DNA of 32,000 nucleotides from Acinetobacter bohemicus ANC 3994 (GTDB lineage: Bacteria; Pseudomonadota; Gammaproteobacteria; Pseudomonadales; Moraxellaceae): positions 711,383 through 743,382 of the forward strand of contig NZ_KB849164.1 in the NCBI RefSeq assembly GCF_000367925.1. Reading direction: 5' to 3'. Under the pieces are notes generated by a model. It was given only the letters and a program-made list of their open reading frames with translations, searched no databases and was not told the origin of the DNA. Numbering within the stretch: the first letter of the stretch is position 1; each line of letters opens with the position of its first letter. This document shows positions 1,906-19,822 of the stretch, in pieces. The translations under genes and the position numbers were made by a program.

Positions 1906-3345
1906 TTGAAACGGTTTTTATTGGCTTGTAGTACAGCTTTGATTTCAGTCATGGGGACAACGCACAGTGCTAATCTGAATGCTGTGCCCCAGTTTAGTGT
2001 TCCTGAAATTGGCAGTGGGATTGGTTTAATTGACCAGCAAAAAGAAAAAATGATAGGGGAAAAAGTCTTTCGCGAAGTGCAAAGACACATGCCAGTCATG
2101 CAAAACCCATGGTTAGAAGATCAGTTATTCAATGTATTTGCACATATTTTAAGTCAAACCCAGCTTGGTCAGCCTATAGGCTTGGTGATCATTAACGATG
2201 CTCAAATTAATGCTTTTGCTGTTCCCGGTGGATTATTTGCCCTGAATGCAGGCTTAATTACCTCTGCTCGAAATATGGATGAGGTGGCAGGTGTAATGGC
2301 GCATGAGGTGGCACATGTATCACAACGTCATTACAGTCGTTCACAAGAAGCATTTAAGGGGCAAGGTTTACTGACCTTAGCAGGGCTTTTGGTGGGAGCT
2401 TTGGTTGCTTCGCAAGCAGATGGTGATATTGGTACAGCCGTGATGTTGGGGACACAAGCCGCATTAATGGATAAGCAGTTGAATTATAGCCGTAACCAAG
2501 AGCGCGAAGCCGATCGTATTGGTATGCAATATATGTATTCAGCGGGTTATAACCCACAGAGTATGGCTGACTTTTTTGAGGTGATGCATCGCGCGACGAG
2601 CCAAGTGTCTTTTTTACCTGATTTTTGGTTAACACATCCATTGAGCACGGAGCGGATGAGTGAAGCACGCTTACGGGCAAATCAATTGCCTCAAGTGAAA
2701 TCGAATTTGCATGATGAAGATTTTGAAATACTGAAATGGTACAGTATGGTGATCTCTAATCAGGCAACAGAACAACAATTACAGATTTTGGCAAATCGTA
2801 AAAATTTTGCGGGACAGGTGGCTTTATCTGCATTTTATTTAAAACAAGGCGACTATGTTCTCGCTCAGCAAGTTTTAGATCAGGCAAAGATGCATCAGCG
2901 TTTAAATAATTTGATGATTCTTATTCAAACGGATATTTATTTAGGGCAAAATAAAGTCGATGAAGCATATACAGCGATTCAATCCACTGCGCGAATTATG
3001 CCTGAAAATAGAGCTTTAGCTTTTAAATTGGCTGAAGTGTTGATTCGTCAAAAGGAAGCAGGGCAAGCCCTGAGCTTAATCCAGCGTTTTAGCAATAAGA
3101 ATCCGCGAGATATTGCTGCATGGCGTTTGATGCAACAAGCTGCAAATATTGATCAACAATCCCCTTTGAGAACGGTGAATGTATTACGTTATCGTGCAGA
3201 GGTTGAATATTGGTCGGGTTGGGAAGAAAATGCAATTAAGTCATTATTGCACGCAGAGCGTTTAGTTAAAAATAATGAAGGATTGTCTGCAAAACTTAAA
3301 ATACGACTGAGTGAAATGCAAAAAGAGCGACAGCTAAAAATCTAA
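1906..3345 (+). CDS. bepA: Periplasmic M48 metalloprotease with C-terminal TPR region (BepA/YfgC-like)
   Basis: 479 aa with a TTG start that gives a signal peptide (MKRFLLACSTALISV..). 'HEVAHV' HExxH motif, 'NQEREADRIG' and 'THPL' as in BepA. The C-terminal half is TPR-like. Confidence 0.8.
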   Translation: MKRFLLACSTALISVMGTTHSANLNAVPQFSVPEIGSGIGLIDQQKEKMIGEKVFREVQRHMPVMQNPWLEDQLFNVFAHILSQTQLGQPIGLVIINDAQINAFAVPGGLFALNAGLITSARNMDEVAGVMAHEVAHVSQRHYSRSQEAFKGQGLLTLAGLLVGALVASQADGDIGTAVMLGTQAALMDKQLNYSRNQEREADRIGMQYMYSAGYNPQSMADFFEVMHRATSQVSFLPDFWLTHPLSTERMSEARLRANQLPQVKSNLHDEDFEILKWYSMVISNQATEQQLQILANRKNFAGQVALSAFYLKQGDYVLAQQVLDQAKMHQRLNNLMILIQTDIYLGQNKVDEAYTAIQSTARIMPENRALAFKLAEVLIRQKEAGQALSLIQRFSNKNPRDIAAWRLMQQAANIDQQSPLRTVNVLRYRAEVEYWSGWEENAIKSLLHAERLVKNNEGLSAKLKIRLSEMQKERQLKI

Positions 3346-14604: not shown

Positions 14605-15432
14605 ATGAATATGAAAATGTATCAGGTCGATGCTTTTACCAATGCGTTATTTAAAGGCAATCCAGCCGCAGTGATTGTGACCGAACAATGGTTGGATGAA
14701 GCATTGATGCAAAATTTGGCTTTGGAAAATAATTTGTCTGAAACGGCATTTGTAAAAGTCATTGACGCAGAAAATTATGAAATTCGTTGGTTTACCCCAA
14801 CAACAGAAGTCGATTTTTGTGGACATGCGACTTTGGCCAGTAGCTTTGTGCTGTTTAAAGATTTTACCTCGGCTAAAGTAATTCAATTTCATGTGAAAAA
14901 TTTGGGTGTTTTTGTGGTCAGCCAAGAGGCAGATGGCAAAATCAAAATGAATTTTCCAATTCGCCGTGCAGAGAAAATTACAGACTACCCTGAAATACTA
15001 AGCCAAGCTTTAAGCAAGCCATTTAAAAATGTGTATTTGAATAGCCAAGCCTATATTGTGGAATATGAGAATTCACAAGATGTCATAGATGAAACGCCAA
15101 ATTTAGAACTGTTAAAACAACTGGGGAAAATTCGAACGGCAATTACAGCACAAGGAACATGGGTTGATTTGGCTTTAACGGCGCAAGCTGAGCAATATGA
15201 TTGTATTTCGCGTTATTTTGCCCCAGCCAACGGTATTAATGAAGATCCAGTCACCGGTTCAATTCATACCGCGATTGCGCCGCTTTGGGCTGAAAAACTA
15301 GGTAAGAATGAAGTCTTAGCGTATCAAGCCTCACAGCGTGGAGGTGAGTTGTATTGTGCTGTGCTTGAAAATGAACGGATTGAAATTTCAGGTTATGCAA
15401 AATTGTATATGCAGGCAGAATTATATTTGTAA
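14605..15432 (+). CDS. PhzF-family isomerase-like protein
   Basis: 275 aa. 'YQVDAFT...FKGNPAAV', 'NLSETAF' and 'FCGHATLAS' are typical of the PhzF family. Confidence 0.85.
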   Translation: MNMKMYQVDAFTNALFKGNPAAVIVTEQWLDEALMQNLALENNLSETAFVKVIDAENYEIRWFTPTTEVDFCGHATLASSFVLFKDFTSAKVIQFHVKNLGVFVVSQEADGKIKMNFPIRRAEKITDYPEILSQALSKPFKNVYLNSQAYIVEYENSQDVIDETPNLELLKQLGKIRTAITAQGTWVDLALTAQAEQYDCISRYFAPANGINEDPVTGSIHTAIAPLWAEKLGKNEVLAYQASQRGGELYCAVLENERIEISGYAKLYMQAELYL

Positions 15433-15754
15433 AATACTAACTGATTTTACGCACGGCACTCATTAAAGGGCTGGTTGCACTGCCTTATATGTATTGCAAA
15501 GTTTAAATGACCTTTGTATAGGCATTATTTCTACTTGTATATTAACTTACATAGTGATTAGCTCTCACTATATGCAAATAGTAGAGTTTGGTTCTCTACT
15601 AAAACTTAAAGTTTGGTCAAAAGATAAAACCTACTATTTGCCCTAACCACTTGCACAACTCTGGACGGTAACTAAGCACTTTGATGCTGTATTCACAAGA
15701 AAAGACGGTGGTTATGCTGAAAGAATAAGTGAATAAATAAAGCAGGTGAAAATT

Positions 15755-16744
15755 ATGTTTTATCTTGGTATTGATGTTGCTAAAGCTAAAATTGATTGCT
15801 GTTTAATTTTAGAAAACTCTGAAAGTAAAAAGAAAACCAAAACTTTTTCGAATATGCCCAAAGGTTTTGAACAGCTTCAAACTTGGCTAAATCATCATGC
15901 TGCAAATTCTACGCAGACCATTATTTTAATGGAAGCCACTTCTATTTATCATGAACGCTTAGCTAAATATTTATTTGATGCAGGCTATCAAGTCTGTGTA
16001 ACCAATCCCGCTAGAGCTCGATATTTTGCTCAGAGCATGTCTAAGCTGAATAAAACAGACAAGGCTGACAGTGAAGTTCTAGCTCGATTTGCGATGACTG
16101 CGGATCTGCATTTTTGGCAGCCTTTACCCGAACATATTCAATTACTGAATGCTTTGCTGGATAGAAGAGCTGTACTTTGTGAAGATTTACAACGTGAAAA
16201 AAATCGTTTGGAAAAAGCAGAGTCTACCTTCACGATAGAACCTGTACTTCAGTCTATCCATAAGAGTATTAAACAGTTAAACAAACACATTCAGGATATT
16301 GATCAGCAAATTGATGATCACATTGATCAAAATCCTGATTTAAAAAATGATAAAGAATTGCTCAGCAGTATTCCAGCCATTGCGGATCGCACCAGTTTAT
16401 TAATGCTCAGTTTCTTGCGCAGCCATAATTTTGAAAGGGCTAGTCAAGCGGCTGCCTTTGTCGGCTTGGTCTCCATTCAAAGGCAATCGGGTAGCTCCAT
16501 TCATGGCAGAAGCCGTTTATCCAAAGCTGGCTCTTCCAAAATACGTGCTGGTTTATATATGGCAGCCATTGTCGCAACTCGGCATAATCCCCACATTAAA
16601 GAGATGAATGAAAGGTTATTGGCCAATGGTAAAACCAAGATGATGGCGATTGGAGCTGCGATGAGGAAGTTAGTTCATCTTTGTTATGGTGTACTCAAAC
16701 ACCAACAGCCTTATCAAGAAAATTATTGCATCAATTCTCAATAA
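15755..16744 (+). CDS. IS110-family transposase (DEDD RuvC-like N-terminal domain plus Transposase_20-type C-terminal domain)
   Basis: 'MFYLGIDVAKAKID', 'LMEATSIYHE', 'VTNPARARYFAQS..KTDKADSEVLARF' and 'LSSIPAIADRT'. ATG at 15755 sits 6 nt after AGGTGA; the ORF track starts at GTG 15746. Confidence 0.9.
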   Translation: MFYLGIDVAKAKIDCCLILENSESKKKTKTFSNMPKGFEQLQTWLNHHAANSTQTIILMEATSIYHERLAKYLFDAGYQVCVTNPARARYFAQSMSKLNKTDKADSEVLARFAMTADLHFWQPLPEHIQLLNALLDRRAVLCEDLQREKNRLEKAESTFTIEPVLQSIHKSIKQLNKHIQDIDQQIDDHIDQNPDLKNDKELLSSIPAIADRTSLLMLSFLRSHNFERASQAAAFVGLVSIQRQSGSSIHGRSRLSKAGSSKIRAGLYMAAIVATRHNPHIKEMNERLLANGKTKMMAIGAAMRKLVHLCYGVLKHQQPYQENYCINSQ

Positions 16745-16900
16745 TCCTCTTGATATCTGAGACGGTATCTTTTGAAAGGTCAGAAGTAGACAAAACCTTT
16801 TGTTGGTCTGAGCGAACATCCTTGTACGCCAGCCCAACGGGTAGCATCCATGCCACCTGTCCGCGGAATTAATTTTTTCTATAATTTAGTCTGGCAGATT
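16745..16900 (+). ncRNA. Candidate IS-encoded guide (bridge/seek) RNA in the right end of the IS
   Basis: Visibly GC-richer than the surrounding intergenic DNA. Hairpin AAAGGT (16775-16780) / ACCTTT (16795-16800) is flanked by TCTGAGACGGTATC (16756-16769) and TCTGAGCGAACATCC (16807-16821), which match 15660-15671 and 16908-16919 respectively. The extent and even the transcribed strand are not established. Confidence 0.35.
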
Positions 16901-16944
16901 TAAGCGGCTGCGTAACATCAGACACTAATCAAGATGAGCGACAA

Positions 16945-16971
16945 AGCCGTTGAAATAAACGGCTATTTTTT
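16945..16971 (+). terminator. Rho-independent terminator
   Basis: Stem AGCCGTT (16945-16951) / AACGGCT (16958-16964), then ATTTTTT. It lies just beyond the proposed right IS junction. Confidence 0.65.
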
Positions 16972-17056: not shown

Positions 17057-19822
17057 ATGTTAATGCGGTTTAAACAACTTACCATCTCCTTATTTTTAGT
17101 AGGCTTGAGTGCCACAGCTTGGTCCCAACCGATTTTGGTTAAATCTCAACAGAAGATTGAGGAATATAAATTAGAGAATGGTTTTCGTGTGATCCTTGCG
17201 CAAAATGATAAAGAAAATAAAGTATTTATGAATACGGTTTATTTAACTGGTTCATTGAATGATCCGCAGGGTAAAGGTGGTTTAGCACATTTATTGGAAC
17301 ATTTAGCGTTTAAAGGGACACAGAATATTAAAGGCGAAGAATTTCAACGCCGTCTTGATCAATACACCTTAATGACGAATGCCAGTACGGACTATTATTC
17401 GACCAAATATACCAATGTCATTCGTCCAGAACAGAATGTGATTAATGAAGTGATTCATCTTGAAGCTGAACGGATGGATAAATTGGTTCTACAAGAAAAA
17501 TTTGTCCCTTCAGAAATTTCGATTGTGAAACGTGAACGTGAAGTTCGTATGGATCAACCTTTTTCTGTAATGATGGATCAAATGTGGAAGTCGGCTTATG
17601 GCAATCAATATTTAGGGCGCTTACCGATTGGTGATTTAAACGAATTACAATCCATTAAAATGGATGAGCTGAATAAGTTTTATCGCACATGGTATGCACC
17701 TAACAACGCCGTCATGGTGATTTCAGGTAAATTTGATAAGGCTGAAGTTTTAAAGCAGATTGATCAAAGGTTTAGTCCAATTGCAGCACGTCATGTTCCA
17801 GCACAGACGAAAGTTCCGGTGCTTGATTCGTCTAAAATGAAACAGCGCAATTTTCTGGTGCAAAAGGGTAGCGATCTAGCGAAATTCAATGTTTATTTGA
17901 ATGGTAAAAATGAAAAGATCAAACCTGAACTTGTTTTAGTGCCTTATTTATATAGCATGCAGCCGAGTGGACATCTTTACCAAAGTATGGTGGAAACGGG
18001 TTTAAGTACAGCAGTTCAATCAACGACATGGTTGGATCAAGACTTTAATTTAGTTTTTATAGGTGCAATTTATGCACCTAATCATGATGCCAAGAAAGTT
18101 GAATCTGCGCTCATTTCTGGGGTAGAAAAGAATCAACCCTTCAACGAAACTGAACTTAATCGGGTAAAAAATCTAATTCAAAATCAGTCAGAGAGTGTAT
18201 TAAGCAATGCCGCAGCATTGGGTGGACGTTTGAGTGATTATTATGTGTCTTATCAGGGTGATTGGTCGCAGTATTTTACCGATTTGGACAATATAAAAAA
18301 ACTTAAACTGACCGATGTGAATCAAACCTTAACCCAGTTTTTAGTCCCACAACATCGTATTTCTGGTGATATTCAACCGACACCTGAAGAGCAGAAAAAA
18401 GCATTAAAGCAAAAGCAAGCATCTGAACCGGCTAAAACTTTAACGCAAACCGATATTCAAGCAGAACCTTTGAAAGATAGTCGTGTCTATCAGCAGGAGG
18501 TTGCAGAATACGTTAAGGCTTCTAAGCAGTCCTTAGTCAATACTGAAAAGAAAATTCAACGTGGCACATTGAAGAATGGTATTCAATATGCTTTATATCC
18601 GACATCGACACGTGATGATAAAACCTACGCCACAATTTCGATTGATTTTGGCACTGAAAAATCATTGTTTAATCAAGGTGAAGTTTTAGATTTGATGGCG
18701 TATTTATTATTACGTGGTTCAGATCAATATAGCTTGCAAGATATTGCCGATAAATCAATTGAAGCGGGTGGTGGTGCAACTGCAAATGCAGCAGGCAATA
18801 GTATTACCATTCAAATTGTTGCGAAAAAAGAAAAGTTTGCAGATTATTTCAAATTTATGTTAGAGGTTTTGAAAAAGCCGAAGTTTGAACAATCCCAATT
18901 TGATTTGATTAAATCGCAAAGTTTATCTGCGCTAGACCGACCTTATACCGAACCAGAAACCGTGGCTGCGCTGACCATGACACGTTTGTTAGAGACTTAT
19001 CAACCGGGGGATTTGCGTTACCATTTTGAACCTGAGGTCTCTAAGCAACAGATTAAGGCTGCGACAGTTGAGCAAGTGAAGACCTTGTATCAAAATTTCT
19101 TTGTCAGTAATCATGCGCAAATTGCAATTACTGGTGATTACCAAGCCAAAGCGATGCTTAAAATATTGCAAAAGGAGTTTGGGGGTTGGAAAGCAAAATT
19201 GCCATATCAACGACTCAGTTCCGATTATCAAGCTTATCCTGCACAGAAAGTTCATACGTTATCTGAACAACGTGAATTTGGTAATTATCAATCTATTTTG
19301 ACCTTTCCTGTCGGTGCGGATCATCCTGATACGCCTGCCTTAATGGTATTTAGTTATATTTTGGGCGACTCACAACTTTCTTCGCGCCTCGCACAAGAGC
19401 TGCGTGAAAAAAATGCCTTGGTTTATGGTTTTGGCAGTGGTTTAAACTTGGATGAGTGGTTAGATTCAGGTGCTTTAACCATTGAAGCCAATTACACCGC
19501 AGGTAAGTCGGCACAAGTTTCACAGGGTGTGCATAAAGTTTTAAATGATTTGCTCAGCAAAGGTGTAACCGAGCAAGAGTTGGAAGCTGCCAAAGCCAAT
19601 ATCTTGAAAAAACGGGTTACCGCTTTAGAAGATGAACGCAATATTCATCGCATGCTAACACCACAACTTGAACATCATCGAGATCTATTGTTCCGTGAAA
19701 AACGTGATCAAGCGTTGGCAAAATTGACTAAAGCCGATGTCGATACTGTTATTAAGAAATATATTAAGCTGGATCAATTCGTTGAAGTCATGGCTGACCA
19801 ATATGGCAAAGCAGAAAAGTAA
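17057..19822 (+). CDS. Secreted M16-family (insulinase/pitrilysin-like, PqqL-like) zinc peptidase, two-module
   Basis: 921 aa with a signal peptide. Inverted zinc motif 'HLLEHLAFKG' and 'ERE..R' downstream. The second half is a non-catalytic M16 repeat. Confidence 0.85.
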   Translation: MLMRFKQLTISLFLVGLSATAWSQPILVKSQQKIEEYKLENGFRVILAQNDKENKVFMNTVYLTGSLNDPQGKGGLAHLLEHLAFKGTQNIKGEEFQRRLDQYTLMTNASTDYYSTKYTNVIRPEQNVINEVIHLEAERMDKLVLQEKFVPSEISIVKREREVRMDQPFSVMMDQMWKSAYGNQYLGRLPIGDLNELQSIKMDELNKFYRTWYAPNNAVMVISGKFDKAEVLKQIDQRFSPIAARHVPAQTKVPVLDSSKMKQRNFLVQKGSDLAKFNVYLNGKNEKIKPELVLVPYLYSMQPSGHLYQSMVETGLSTAVQSTTWLDQDFNLVFIGAIYAPNHDAKKVESALISGVEKNQPFNETELNRVKNLIQNQSESVLSNAAALGGRLSDYYVSYQGDWSQYFTDLDNIKKLKLTDVNQTLTQFLVPQHRISGDIQPTPEEQKKALKQKQASEPAKTLTQTDIQAEPLKDSRVYQQEVAEYVKASKQSLVNTEKKIQRGTLKNGIQYALYPTSTRDDKTYATISIDFGTEKSLFNQGEVLDLMAYLLLRGSDQYSLQDIADKSIEAGGGATANAAGNSITIQIVAKKEKFADYFKFMLEVLKKPKFEQSQFDLIKSQSLSALDRPYTEPETVAALTMTRLLETYQPGDLRYHFEPEVSKQQIKAATVEQVKTLYQNFFVSNHAQIAITGDYQAKAMLKILQKEFGGWKAKLPYQRLSSDYQAYPAQKVHTLSEQREFGNYQSILTFPVGADHPDTPALMVFSYILGDSQLSSRLAQELREKNALVYGFGSGLNLDEWLDSGALTIEANYTAGKSAQVSQGVHKVLNDLLSKGVTEQELEAAKANILKKRVTALEDERNIHRMLTPQLEHHRDLLFREKRDQALAKLTKADVDTVIKKYIKLDQFVEVMADQYGKAEK

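What the first reader, a model, noticed from the sequence alone, without database searches (positions are those of the whole stretch)
15660..16920. IS110/IS1111-family insertion whose structured 3' non-coding end looks like a guide (bridge/seek) RNA gene
Seen in the sequence:
- A DEDD IS110-type transposase gene (15755-16744) sits between the PhzF-family gene and the M16 peptidase gene.
- It has only about 90 nt of non-coding DNA on its 5' side but 150 nt or more of visibly GC-richer DNA on its 3' side.
- That 3' region contains a hairpin (AAAGGT 16775-16780 / ACCTTT 16795-16800, 14-nt loop).
- The hairpin is flanked by two segments that both begin with TCTGAG.
- TCTGAGACGGTATC (16756-16769) matches TCTGGACGGTAA at 15660-15671, with a 1-nt indel. 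That site lies upstream of the transposase.
- TCTGAGCGAACATCC (16807-16821) matches CTGCGTAACATC at 16908-16919, also with small indels. That site lies beyond the structured region.

Established knowledge: IS110-family recombinases use an IS-encoded non-coding RNA. Its internal loops carry short guides that match the IS ends (donor) and the target flanks around a shared core. In the IS1111 subgroup this RNA lies 3' of the transposase gene (bridge RNA / seekRNA work published in 2024).

Inference: the two TCTGAG-prefixed segments are donor- and target-matching guide strands, the core is CT(G), and the element spans roughly 15664-16910. I could not convincingly find the two antisense guide halves by eye, so the model is incomplete.
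Basis: partly seen in the sequence, partly recalled or inferred. Interest (0 to 1): 0.8.

Follow-up and report, generated by a model that had tools for sequence, protein, structure and literature searches.

The report
IS621-like insertion sequence; guide RNA upstream
This is an ordinary IS110-group (IS621-like) insertion sequence whose bridge (guide) RNA lies upstream of the transposase gene, not downstream as proposed; the structured GC-rich DNA on its 3' side is the remainder of a repeated hairpin-rich intergenic element into which it inserted.

Summary
The DEDD/IS110 transposase gene (15755-16744) is real.

- **Limits.** Seventeen other copies and relatives fix the ends at CTTGTAT... (15534) and ...GACGGTATCT (16770). 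That gives 1237 bp including both CT cores. The upstream non-coding region is 221 nt and the downstream one only 26 nt.
- **Guide RNA.** It lies at about 15551-15716. It has a 5' hairpin, a target-binding loop and a donor-binding loop, built like the validated IS621 RNA.
- **Guides.** They match the flanks and the IS ends. They change with the flanks in four variant groups across 12 insertion sites.
- **Covariance models.** Models built here hit this 5' position in distant relatives. An iterated model hits IS621's own RNA. Nothing hits the 3' region.
The first (15660-71 against 16756-69) is real, but it is guide against IS right end. The second is chance.
- **The 3' "structured" DNA.** 16771-16938, together with 15437-15533, belongs to a roughly 265-bp multi-hairpin repeat. 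That repeat is absent from this site in sister species. Uninterrupted copies elsewhere carry the exact target TTTCTA-CT-TTTGAAAGG.

Verdict: a known kind of element and a new member of it. Interest is low.

The parts
15437..15533 (.). Left part of the host element, a multi-hairpin intergenic repeat. It is not part of the IS.
   Evidence: Absent from the PhzF-M16 spacer of sister species L007 and L008. Homologous to uninterrupted family members L098, L100, L101, L111 and L112.
15441..15453 (.). Left arm of a terminal inverted repeat of the host element (CTGATTTTACGCA). It pairs with 16909-16921.
   Evidence: the repeat finder pair I9: 13 nt, 92% complementary. It lies at the edges of the DNA that relatives lack.
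15534..16770 (+). IS110-group (IS621-like) insertion sequence. 1237 bp including the CT core at each end (15534-35 and 16769-70).
   Evidence: Ends CTTGTAT... and ...GACGGTATCT are shared by 17 copies in different contexts and by IS621 itself (CTTGTAT / ACAGTATCT).
15538..15543 (+). -10 hexamer (TATATT) of the promoter formed only when the IS ends are joined in a circle.
   Evidence: The joined ends read TTGATA-17 nt-TATATT. The geometry is the same in all variants and in IS621. The principle is from PMC11208160.
15551..15716 (+). Bridge RNA gene: 5' stem-loop 15551-71, target-binding loop 15574-15641, donor-binding loop 15644-15714.
   Evidence: Covariance-model hits at the same place in distant relatives and in IS621. 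95% of cells paired and 28 of 40 pairs compensatory.
15592..15600 (+). Left target guide (LTG), TTCTCTACT.
   Evidence: Equals the left flank plus core, ATTTCTACT, at 7 of 9 positions. It covaries with the left flank in four variant groups.
15617..15626 (+). Right target guide (RTG) TCAAAAG at 15617-23, followed by the handshake guide AT(A).
   Evidence: 100% complementary over 10 nt to TATCTTTTGA at 16766-75 (pair I22). The RTG covaries with the right flank. The handshake rule is from PMC11208158.
15664..15673 (+). Left donor guide (LDG), GACGGTAACT.
   Evidence: 9 of 10 identical to the IS right end GACGGTATCT (family D16). Nearly invariant among relatives: the only change in the six sequences of alignment A3 is G to A at 15664 in L086/L088.
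15691..15699 (+). Right donor guide (RDG), ATTCACAAG.
   Evidence: Pairs discontiguously (9 RNA nt to 7 DNA nt) with the left end CTTGTAT, as described for IS621. It aligns to IS621's GUAUUUGCAAG.
15755..16744 (+). DEDD/serine transposase (bridge recombinase), 329 aa.
   Evidence: Pfam. PDB IS621 transposase 8wt6, E 5e-59. D7, E60, D102, D105 and S245 align with the IS621 catalytic residues. Identical to WP_004648673.1 of A. bohemicus ANC 3994.
16750..16755 (+). -35 hexamer (TTGATA) of the junction promoter.
16761..16770 (+). IS right end: left donor GACGGTAT plus core CT.
16771..16938 (.). Right part of the host element. It contains the rest of the target palindrome (16771-16790), long hairpin 16802-16838, hairpin 16840-16857 and the right arm of the inverted repeat 16909-16921.
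   Evidence: Absent from sister species at this site. Homologous to family members, with compensatory changes in the hairpins. No covariance-model or Rfam hit.
16945..16964 (+). Native terminator hairpin downstream of the PhzF-family gene, conserved in relatives.

Best explanation
An intact IS110-group insertion sequence (15534-16770) closely resembling IS621 has inserted into the 5' arm of a palindromic hairpin. The intact palindrome reads TCTACTTTTGA-aagg-TCAAAAGTAGA. It belongs to a roughly 265-bp multi-hairpin intergenic repeat, and that repeat sits just after the PhzF-family gene.

The IS encodes its bridge RNA upstream of the transposase gene, at about 15551-15716.
- The target-binding loop carries an LTG (TTCTCTACT) that reads like the left flank plus core.
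- It also carries an RTG (TCAAAAG) complementary to core plus right flank.
- The donor-binding loop carries an LDG (GACGGTAACT) that reads like the IS right end.
- It also carries an RDG (ATTCACAAG) complementary to the left end CTTGTAT.
- All four guides include the CT core.

By analogy with IS621 (inferred, not shown here), the element excises as a circle. Joining the ends then creates the promoter TTGATA-17-TATATT, which drives the bridge RNA. The recombinase-RNA complex pairs donor and target and exchanges strands at CT.

The structured GC-rich DNA 3' of the transposase gene is target DNA, not an RNA gene of the IS.
For: **Ends to the base**
- 17 copies or relatives in unrelated contexts share the ends.
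- Eight metagenome contigs (five distinct repeat members: L098=L107~L115, L100, L101, L111=L118, L112) carry the uninterrupted target TTTCTACTTTTGAAAGGTCA inside the same repeat family.
- 99.3-99.7% identical IS copies (L003-5) sit at the same position of a different family member, the L112 type.

**Protein**
- Pfam families of IS110 transposases.
- IS621 transposase structure 8wt6, E 5e-59.
- Catalytic D, E, D, D and S residues conserved.

**RNA**
- Guide-flank matching at 12 sites in four variant groups: 9-12 of 12 programmable positions cognate (8 of 8 readable for L003, whose left flank is cut), against 3-7 non-cognate.
- 10-nt perfect complementarity of 15617-26 to the right junction.
- Structure: 95% of cells paired against 37-47% in slid controls. 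28 of 40 pairs show compensatory changes, spread over all six helices.
- Model R1 hits Arsenophonus and Klebsiella relatives just 5' of their transposase genes (87, 69 and 47 bits).
- Iterated model R2 hits the IS621 bridge-RNA region at 26 bits, against window noise of 11 bits or less.

**Published rules matched**
- The non-coding region is upstream in the IS110 type (PMC11187229; PMC11208160).
- Strand rules for LTG, RTG, LDG and RDG.
- The 9-to-7 discontiguous RDG pairing.
- The handshake guide AU next to the RTG.
Against: - No expression or activity data exist. The transcript ends (about 15551 and about 15716) are inferred.
- The LTG matches the actual left flank at only 7 of 9 positions.
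- The donor-loop handshake positions (AA, 15700-01) do not clearly pair with the target.
- Alignment A4, used for the pair counts, was fitted to the model structure. The Acinetobacter sequences alone give only 5 compensatory pairs, all in the target-binding loop.
- Rfam has no family for comparison.
- What kind of element the host repeat is, and whether it moves, remains unresolved.
Confidence: 0.9

Rival explanations
1. This is an IS1111-type element spanning about 15664-16910, and its seekRNA/bridge RNA is encoded 3' of the transposase gene at 16745-16920. The two TCTGAG-prefixed segments would be guides.
For: The 3' DNA is GC-richer and folds into hairpins. One segment, 16756-69, does match an upstream sequence above chance.
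Against: - Similarity among all copies stops at 16770, or continues only because the targets are related.
- 16771-16938 occurs without any IS in other contexts.
- There are no subterminal inverted repeats.
- No covariance-model hit falls in 16745-16938, while the 5' region scores 182-200 bits.
- The fold z-score of 16745-16920 is only -1.34.
- The second match is chance.
Confidence: 0.02
2. A composite like ISPpu9 with ssr9. The right-hand structured module (16771 to about 16924) would be a selfish small-RNA cassette that travels with the IS, or uses its transposase.
For: A precedent exists in Pseudomonas putida (PMC12288879). The IS copies L003-5 are also followed by a related structured module.
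Against: - The modules next to the 99%-identical IS copies are different, strongly diverged family members. This implies independent insertions.
- Family members without an IS always contain both the left and the right halves around an intact target.
- No IS-end-like sequence (GACGGTATCT or similar) closes the right module.
Confidence: 0.04
3. The extra DNA around the IS (15437-15533 and 16771-16938) is native regulatory sequence of this locus, such as a terminator region or a 5' leader of the M16 peptidase gene. It would not be a repeat or mobile element.
For: It is intergenic, hairpin-rich and lies between two genes.
Against: - It is absent from the same spacer in the closest species, where only 4 nt separate the flanks.
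- Homologous copies lie in at least six unrelated gene contexts.
Confidence: 0.04

Closest known systems
IS621 of Escherichia coli with its 177-nt bridge RNA (Durrant et al. 2024, PMC11208160; Hiraizumi et al. 2024, PMC11208158)
   Same: - Same transposase fold family (PDB 8wt6, E 5e-59) with the catalytic residues conserved.
- Same layout: long upstream and short downstream non-coding regions.
- Same CT core.
- Identical left end (CTTGTAT). The right end differs by one base: ACGGTATCT against ACAGTATCT.
- Same junction-promoter geometry.
- Same RNA architecture and the same order of guides. An iterated covariance model aligns it to the IS621 RNA position by position.
   Different: - Only 38.8% protein identity.
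- The 5' hairpin and the inner stem-loops are shorter.
- The natural target is different: a palindrome in an Acinetobacter multi-hairpin repeat, rather than E. coli REP sequences.
- The LDG mismatch falls at position 7 instead of at the last core base.
IS1111 group and seekRNA elements such as ISEc11, ISKpn4 and ISPa11 (Siddiquee et al. 2024, PMC11187229)
   Same: DEDD transposase, RNA-guided site-specific insertion, and targets in foldable repeats.
   Different: In IS1111 elements the non-coding region and the RNA lie downstream of the transposase gene, and subterminal inverted repeats of 7-17 bp are present. Neither is true here.
ISPpu10 and ISPpu9 of Pseudomonas putida, IS110 elements that insert in REP or stem-loop-bearing intergenic repeats (bioRxiv 10.64898/2026.03.19.712850; PMC12288879)
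   Same: Insertion into a conserved intergenic repeat that forms stem-loops next to the base-paired target.
   Different: Whether the hairpins here contribute to recognition was not tested. In this case the target lies inside the palindrome's arm.

Membership tests
IS110 family (DEDD transposase) | Transposase with an N-terminal DEDD (RuvC-like) domain and a C-terminal Tnp domain carrying the catalytic Ser. | tested here: met
   PF01548 E 1e-30 and PF02371 E 2e-18. D7, E60, D102, D105 and S245 align with IS621 D11, E60, D102, D105 and S241.
IS110 family (DEDD transposase) | Sequence-specific insertion, no long terminal inverted repeats, and a short core repeated at both junctions. | tested here: met
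   CT is present at both junctions in 17 copies. The target is conserved within each variant.
IS110 subgroup (IS621-like) | Long non-coding left end upstream of the transposase gene, short right end. | tested here: met
   221 nt against 26 nt. The rule is from PMC11208160 and PMC11187229.
IS110 subgroup (IS621-like) | Sigma-70 promoter reconstituted across the joined right and left ends. | tested here: met
   TTGATA-17 nt-TATATT across the joined ends, with the same geometry in the relatives and in IS621. This is sequence only; activity was not tested. No promoter-like site lies upstream of the RNA in the integrated copy.
Bridge RNA | [quoted passage not shown] | tested here: met
   Six helices, 95% of cells paired, 28 of 40 pairs compensatory. 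With Acinetobacter sequences only: 89.8% paired and 5 compensatory pairs.
Bridge RNA | The first loop's 5' side reads like left flank plus core. Its 3' side is complementary to core plus right flank, and both covary with the target. | tested here: met
   12 sites in four variant groups. Cognate matches exceed non-cognate ones at every site.
Bridge RNA | The second loop's 5' side reads like right end plus core. Its 3' side is complementary to core plus left end, with the 9-to-7 discontiguous pairing. | tested here: met
   GACGGTAACT against GACGGTATCT. ATTCACAAG against CTTGTAT.
Bridge RNA | Handshake guides that pair with the non-cognate DNA after strand exchange. | tested here: inconclusive
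   In the target loop, AU(A) pairs with (T)AT of the donor (pair I22). In the donor loop, AA does not clearly pair with target positions 6-7.
Bridge RNA | Homology to an experimentally validated bridge RNA. | tested here: met
Iterated model R2 scores the IS621 left end (L119 515-698) at 26.0 bits, E about 4e-5, with guides aligned. Noise is 11.2 bits or less.
Bridge RNA | The RNA is transcribed, binds the recombinase and is required for recombination. | not testable with these tools
   No expression or biochemical data are available.
IS1111 subgroup / 3' seekRNA | Long non-coding region and guide RNA downstream of the transposase gene. | tested here: not met
   The right end is 26 nt. There is no model hit in 16745-16938.
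IS1111 subgroup / 3' seekRNA | Subterminal inverted repeats of 7-17 bp. | tested here: not met
   The longest inverted match between the first and last 60 nt is 6 nt, and it is internal.

The most novel reading that the evidence does not exclude
The host DNA may be a previously undescribed family of structured intergenic repeats in Acinetobacter. It has four hairpins, nested insertions in its loops, a CTAC/GTAG-bearing palindrome, and presence/absence differences between species. It may serve as a dedicated landing pad for this bridge recombinase. Its hairpins would then add a structural recognition layer, as reported for ISPpu10. The palindrome would also allow insertion in either orientation: the bottom-strand arm matches the guides even better, RTG 9/9 and LTG 8/9.
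Probability: 0.2. Interest if true: 0.45.

Novelty: new member of a known kind. Interest (0 to 1): 0.2.

Why it matters
The case shows how an IS110-family element can be annotated to the base from sequence comparison alone: ends, core, four guides and junction promoter. It also corrects a plausible but wrong placement of the guide RNA. It adds a natural IS621-like recombinase and bridge-RNA pair from Acinetobacter, with a defined palindromic target. Its relatives sit on resistance plasmids; the copy in locus L001, for example, lies next to aph(6)-Id. It does not change what is known about the mechanism.

Tried and rejected
- **Rfam.** Scans of the region, and of intact host-element copies, gave nothing relevant.
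- **Exact-protein look-ups.** Two look-ups of the PhzF-family protein, meant to find IS-free alleles, found nothing. A genome scan with the protein was used instead.
- **RNAalifold on Acinetobacter sequences alone.** It recovered the target-binding loop but mis-paired the donor-binding loop with the 5' hairpin. A manual IS621-like structure was tested instead.
- **First covariance model.** It scored IS621 no better than a chance hit inside an ORF at 2822-2990(-). It was not used as evidence until the model had been iterated.
- **Host hairpin 16802-38 as an integron attC site.** Rejected. The GTT...AAC ends are in the reverse order to attC (sequence inspection).
- **TCTGAG as a shared guide prefix.** Rejected. 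It is not conserved in the relatives.
- **Search for other target palindromes or IS copies in the window.** None found.
- **Literature search for a named Acinetobacter IS110 bridge RNA.** Nothing specific found. ISfinder was not available, so the element's ISfinder name is unknown.
Full report
**What is in the sequence**

The ORF at 15755-16744(+) encodes a 329-aa protein. It matches Pfam DEDD_Tnp_IS110 (E 1e-30) and Transposase_20 (E 2e-18). It lies between a PhzF-family gene (14605-15432) and an M16 peptidase gene (17057-19822). Its best solved relative is the IS621 transposase (PDB 8wt6, E 5e-59). Global identity to IS621 is 38.8%. D7, E60, D102, D105 and S245 align with the IS621 catalytic residues D11, E60, D102, D105 and S241. 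The exact protein is WP_004648673.1 of Acinetobacter bohemicus ANC 3994, so the window probably comes from that species (inference).

**Where the IS begins and ends**

- Plasmid copies align to the window over 15552-16775 (L001, 91.7% identity) and 15534-16770 (L002, 86%).
- Metagenome contigs encoding the identical transposase (L003-5, 99.3-99.7% identity) align over 15531-16785.
- In 17 copies from unrelated contexts the shared element starts with CTTGTAT and ends with GACGGTATCT.
- IS621 on an E. coli plasmid (L119) starts with CTTGTAT and ends with ACAGTATCT.

The IS is therefore 15534-16770, which is 1237 bp counting the CT core at both junctions. The non-coding stretch upstream of the transposase gene is 221 nt and the one downstream is 26 nt. 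No subterminal inverted repeat longer than 6 nt exists. This is the IS110-subgroup layout, not the IS1111 layout. Both 2024 papers state that the non-coding region and the RNA are upstream in the IS110 type and downstream in IS1111 (PMC11208160; PMC11187229).

**The guide RNA is upstream**

The left end folds as follows.

- A 5' hairpin at 15551-15571.
- A long stem (15574-89 with 15626-41) enclosing an internal loop and a small inner hairpin (15602-14).
- A second stem (15644-50 with 15708-14, plus 15660-62 with 15703-05), also with an internal loop and an inner hairpin (15675-88).

Durrant et al. give the strand rules. [quoted passage not shown] The 3' side is complementary to core plus right flank. 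The four guides here follow those rules.

| Guide | Coordinates | Sequence | Partner |
|---|---|---|---|
| LTG | 15592-15600 | TTCTCTACT | left flank plus core ATTTCTACT, 7 of 9 identical |
| RTG | 15617-15623 | TCAAAAG | exact complement of CTTTTGA, core plus right flank at 16769-75 |
| LDG | 15664-15673 | GACGGTAACT | right end GACGGTATCT, 9 of 10 identical |
| RDG | 15691-15699 | ATTCACAAG | CTTGTAT, pairing ACAAG with CTTGT, a 2-nt bulge, then AU with AT |

- The RDG pairing is the "nine RNA nucleotides to seven donor bases" pattern reported for IS621.
- The two bases after the RTG core (AU, with a further A) pair with (T)AT of the IS right end. That produces the 10-nt perfect complement 15617-26 / 16766-75. 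It corresponds to the handshake guide A81/U82 of IS621.
- The donor-loop handshake positions (AA) do not clearly pair with the target.

**Guides change with the flanks**

Four variant groups of this IS have different loop sequences and different insertion sites.

| Variant | LTG | Left flank plus core | RTG | Right flank |
|---|---|---|---|---|
| P0003 type (10 loci read, L120-L129; 5 scored) | AATAGACCT | (A/T)AT(A/T)AGAC-CT | GCAAGAG | CT-CTTGC |
| L002 | GTGTACTAGC | GTGTACTAG-CT | GGTTTGAG | CT-CAAACC |
| L086/88/89 | AGTGCTGCT | AGTGCT(A/T)-CT | A(C/T)CTGAG | CT-CAGGT or CT-CATGT |

Over the 12 programmable positions, cognate pairs match at 9-12. For L003 only 8 positions can be read, because its left flank is cut, and all 8 match. 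Non-cognate pairs match at 3-7.

**Structure and homology tests**

- On six Acinetobacter sequences plus a degenerate remnant, the manual structure is 89.8% paired, against about 40% when partners are slid. It has five compensatory pairs, all in the target-binding loop.
- Model R1, built from the six Acinetobacter sequences, hits full length immediately upstream of the transposase ATG in relatives of 42-48% protein identity. Scores were Arsenophonus 86.6 bits, Klebsiella 69.3 bits and K. quasipneumoniae 46.6 bits.
- R1's score on IS621 (16.7 bits) equals a chance hit inside an ORF at 2822-2990 (17.3 bits). It was not counted as evidence.
- With those three relatives added, the structure is 95% paired against 37-47% slid. 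28 of 40 pairs have compensatory changes, in all six helices. This alignment is fitted to the model, which favours the structure.
- The iterated model R2 scores the IS621 left end (L119 515-698) at 26.0 bits and another E. coli relative at 26.9 bits. That stretch runs from 3 nt inside the published RNA sequence (AGTGCAG..., about L119 512, read) to 10 nt past the transposase start codon (L119 689). Window noise is 11.2 bits or less.
- In that alignment IS621's LTG, RTG-AU, LDG and RDG fall opposite the segments named above.
- Neither model reports anything in 16745-16938 on either strand. Rfam 15 has no matching family.

**Promoter**

Joining the right end to the left end gives TTGATA (16750-55), 17 nt, then TATATT (15538-43). 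The relatives and IS621 have the same geometry: TTGACG/TTGACT/TTGCAG, 17 nt, then TATCTT/TATTAT. No sigma-70-like site precedes the RNA in the integrated copy. This fits the published circle-dependent promoter. Activity here is inferred.

**What the 3' "structured region" is**

In the closest IS-free relatives (L007 and L008, whose PhzF-family proteins are 95% identical), window 15436 and 16939 are separated by only 4 nt. About 1.5 kb is therefore extra in the window. It consists of the 1237-bp IS plus 97 nt to its left (15437-15533) and 168 nt to its right (16771-16938).

Removing the IS reconstructs a roughly 265-bp element.

- Eight metagenome contigs carry uninterrupted copies containing the exact 20-mer TTTCTACTTTTGAAAGGTCA. 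They are L098, L100, L101, L107, L111, L112, L115 and L118, and they represent five distinct members: L107 is identical to L098 over the element, L115 is 98% identical to it, and L118 is identical to L111 over the 160 nt it holds.
- More diverged copies, at 74-80% identity, occur at 2 to 4 places per record in four large Acinetobacter baumannii records of the plasmid collection. Three of these are 3.7-4.1 Mb long, which is chromosome size.
- These copies lie in unrelated intergenic contexts, often between convergent genes.

The intact element folds into four parts.

- A small hairpin.
- The perfect palindrome TCTACTTTTGA-aagg-TCAAAAGTAGA, which contains the target.
- A long hairpin. The window has GTTGGTCTGAGCGAAC...GTACGCCAGCCCAAC. 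Elsewhere it reads GTTTCCCATACACGAC...GTCGTGATGGGAAAC or GTTGAGCAAACCGTAC...GTACGGTTGCTCAAC, so the changes are compensatory.
- A short GC hairpin around GGCATCCATGCC.

Some members carry nested insertions in the loops.

The nearly identical IS copies L003-5 sit at the same position of a different member, the L112 type. Their flank is 97% identical to L112 over 96 nt (L004; 93-97% across L003-5). This argues for independent, sequence-directed insertions rather than co-transport of the flank.

It lies wholly in this target DNA. In the intact element the palindrome is the more stable alternative.

IS110-family insertion into REP-like repeats is well known (references cited in PMC11208160; ISPpu9 in PMC12288879; ISPpu10 in bioRxiv 10.64898/2026.03.19.712850). 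What kind of repeat this one is was not resolved. Candidates are a REP-like repeat, a miniature inverted-repeat element with the 13-nt inverted repeats 15441-53 / 16909-21, or a small RNA gene.

- The match of 16756-69 with 15660-71 is above chance: 1.3% of shuffles were as good.
- The match of 16807-21 with 16908-19 is chance: 64% of shuffles were as good.
- The TCTGAG prefix is not conserved in the right ends of the relatives.

**Verdict**

This is a canonical IS621-like IS110-group element with an upstream bridge RNA, inserted in a hairpin-rich repeat. The mechanism is inferred by close analogy to IS621. Everything testable by sequence agrees with that analogy. Transcription, RNA binding and activity were not testable here. 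It is a new member of a known kind, and its interest is low.

Noticed in passing
window 15437-15533 + 16771-16938; also L098:1501-1840, L100, L101, L111, L112, L090:1441-1640: A roughly 265-340-bp multi-hairpin intergenic repeat family in Acinetobacter. It is missing from this locus in sister species. Its hairpins show compensatory changes, some loops carry nested insertions, and it contains a CTAC/GTAG-bearing palindrome. It has no Rfam match. Its nature (REP-like repeat, miniature inverted-repeat element or small RNA gene) is unresolved.
   Followed up: partly
window 15615-15623 against 16780-16796 (bottom strand): The target is a palindrome. On family members with an intact 3' arm, that arm read on the bottom strand (TTGTCTA-CT-TTTGACC) matches the guides better than the arm actually used: RTG 9/9 and LTG 8/9. 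Insertion in either orientation therefore looks possible. In the window itself that arm carries an A-to-G change.
   Followed up: partly
L086, L088, L089 (Acinetobacter plasmids), positions 2004-3245: A related IS has a transposase only 54% identical in protein (67% in nucleotides). Its bridge-RNA region is nevertheless 82% identical in nucleotides to the window's. The non-coding left end is better conserved than the gene.
   Followed up: partly
L087:2001-2170 (Acinetobacter sp. ACNIH2 plasmid pACI-3569): A degenerate bridge-RNA-like sequence (68 bits with model R1). It lacks the CTTGTAT end, no transposase homologue lies within 2 kb, and it sits near an IS1595-family transposase gene. It looks like an orphan remnant.
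   Followed up: partly
L006:3868-4167 (A. kyonggiensis ANC 5109): At the same PhzF-M16 spacer, this species has a different insertion of about 300 bp. It splits the terminator hairpin and is flanked by AATAAAC direct repeats. It is unrelated to the window's host element.
   Followed up: no
L001:1483-2721 (A. pittii plasmid pAB17H194-1): A relative of this IS whose transposase is 93% identical in protein sits about 1.1 kb downstream of the resistance gene aph(6)-Id on a mobilizable plasmid.
   Followed up: no
window 2822-2990 (-): A full-length but weak hit of the first covariance model (17.3 bits; CYK 8.1). It lies inside a 479-aa ORF on the opposite strand and fell to 10.1 bits with the iterated model. 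Judged to be chance.
   Followed up: yes
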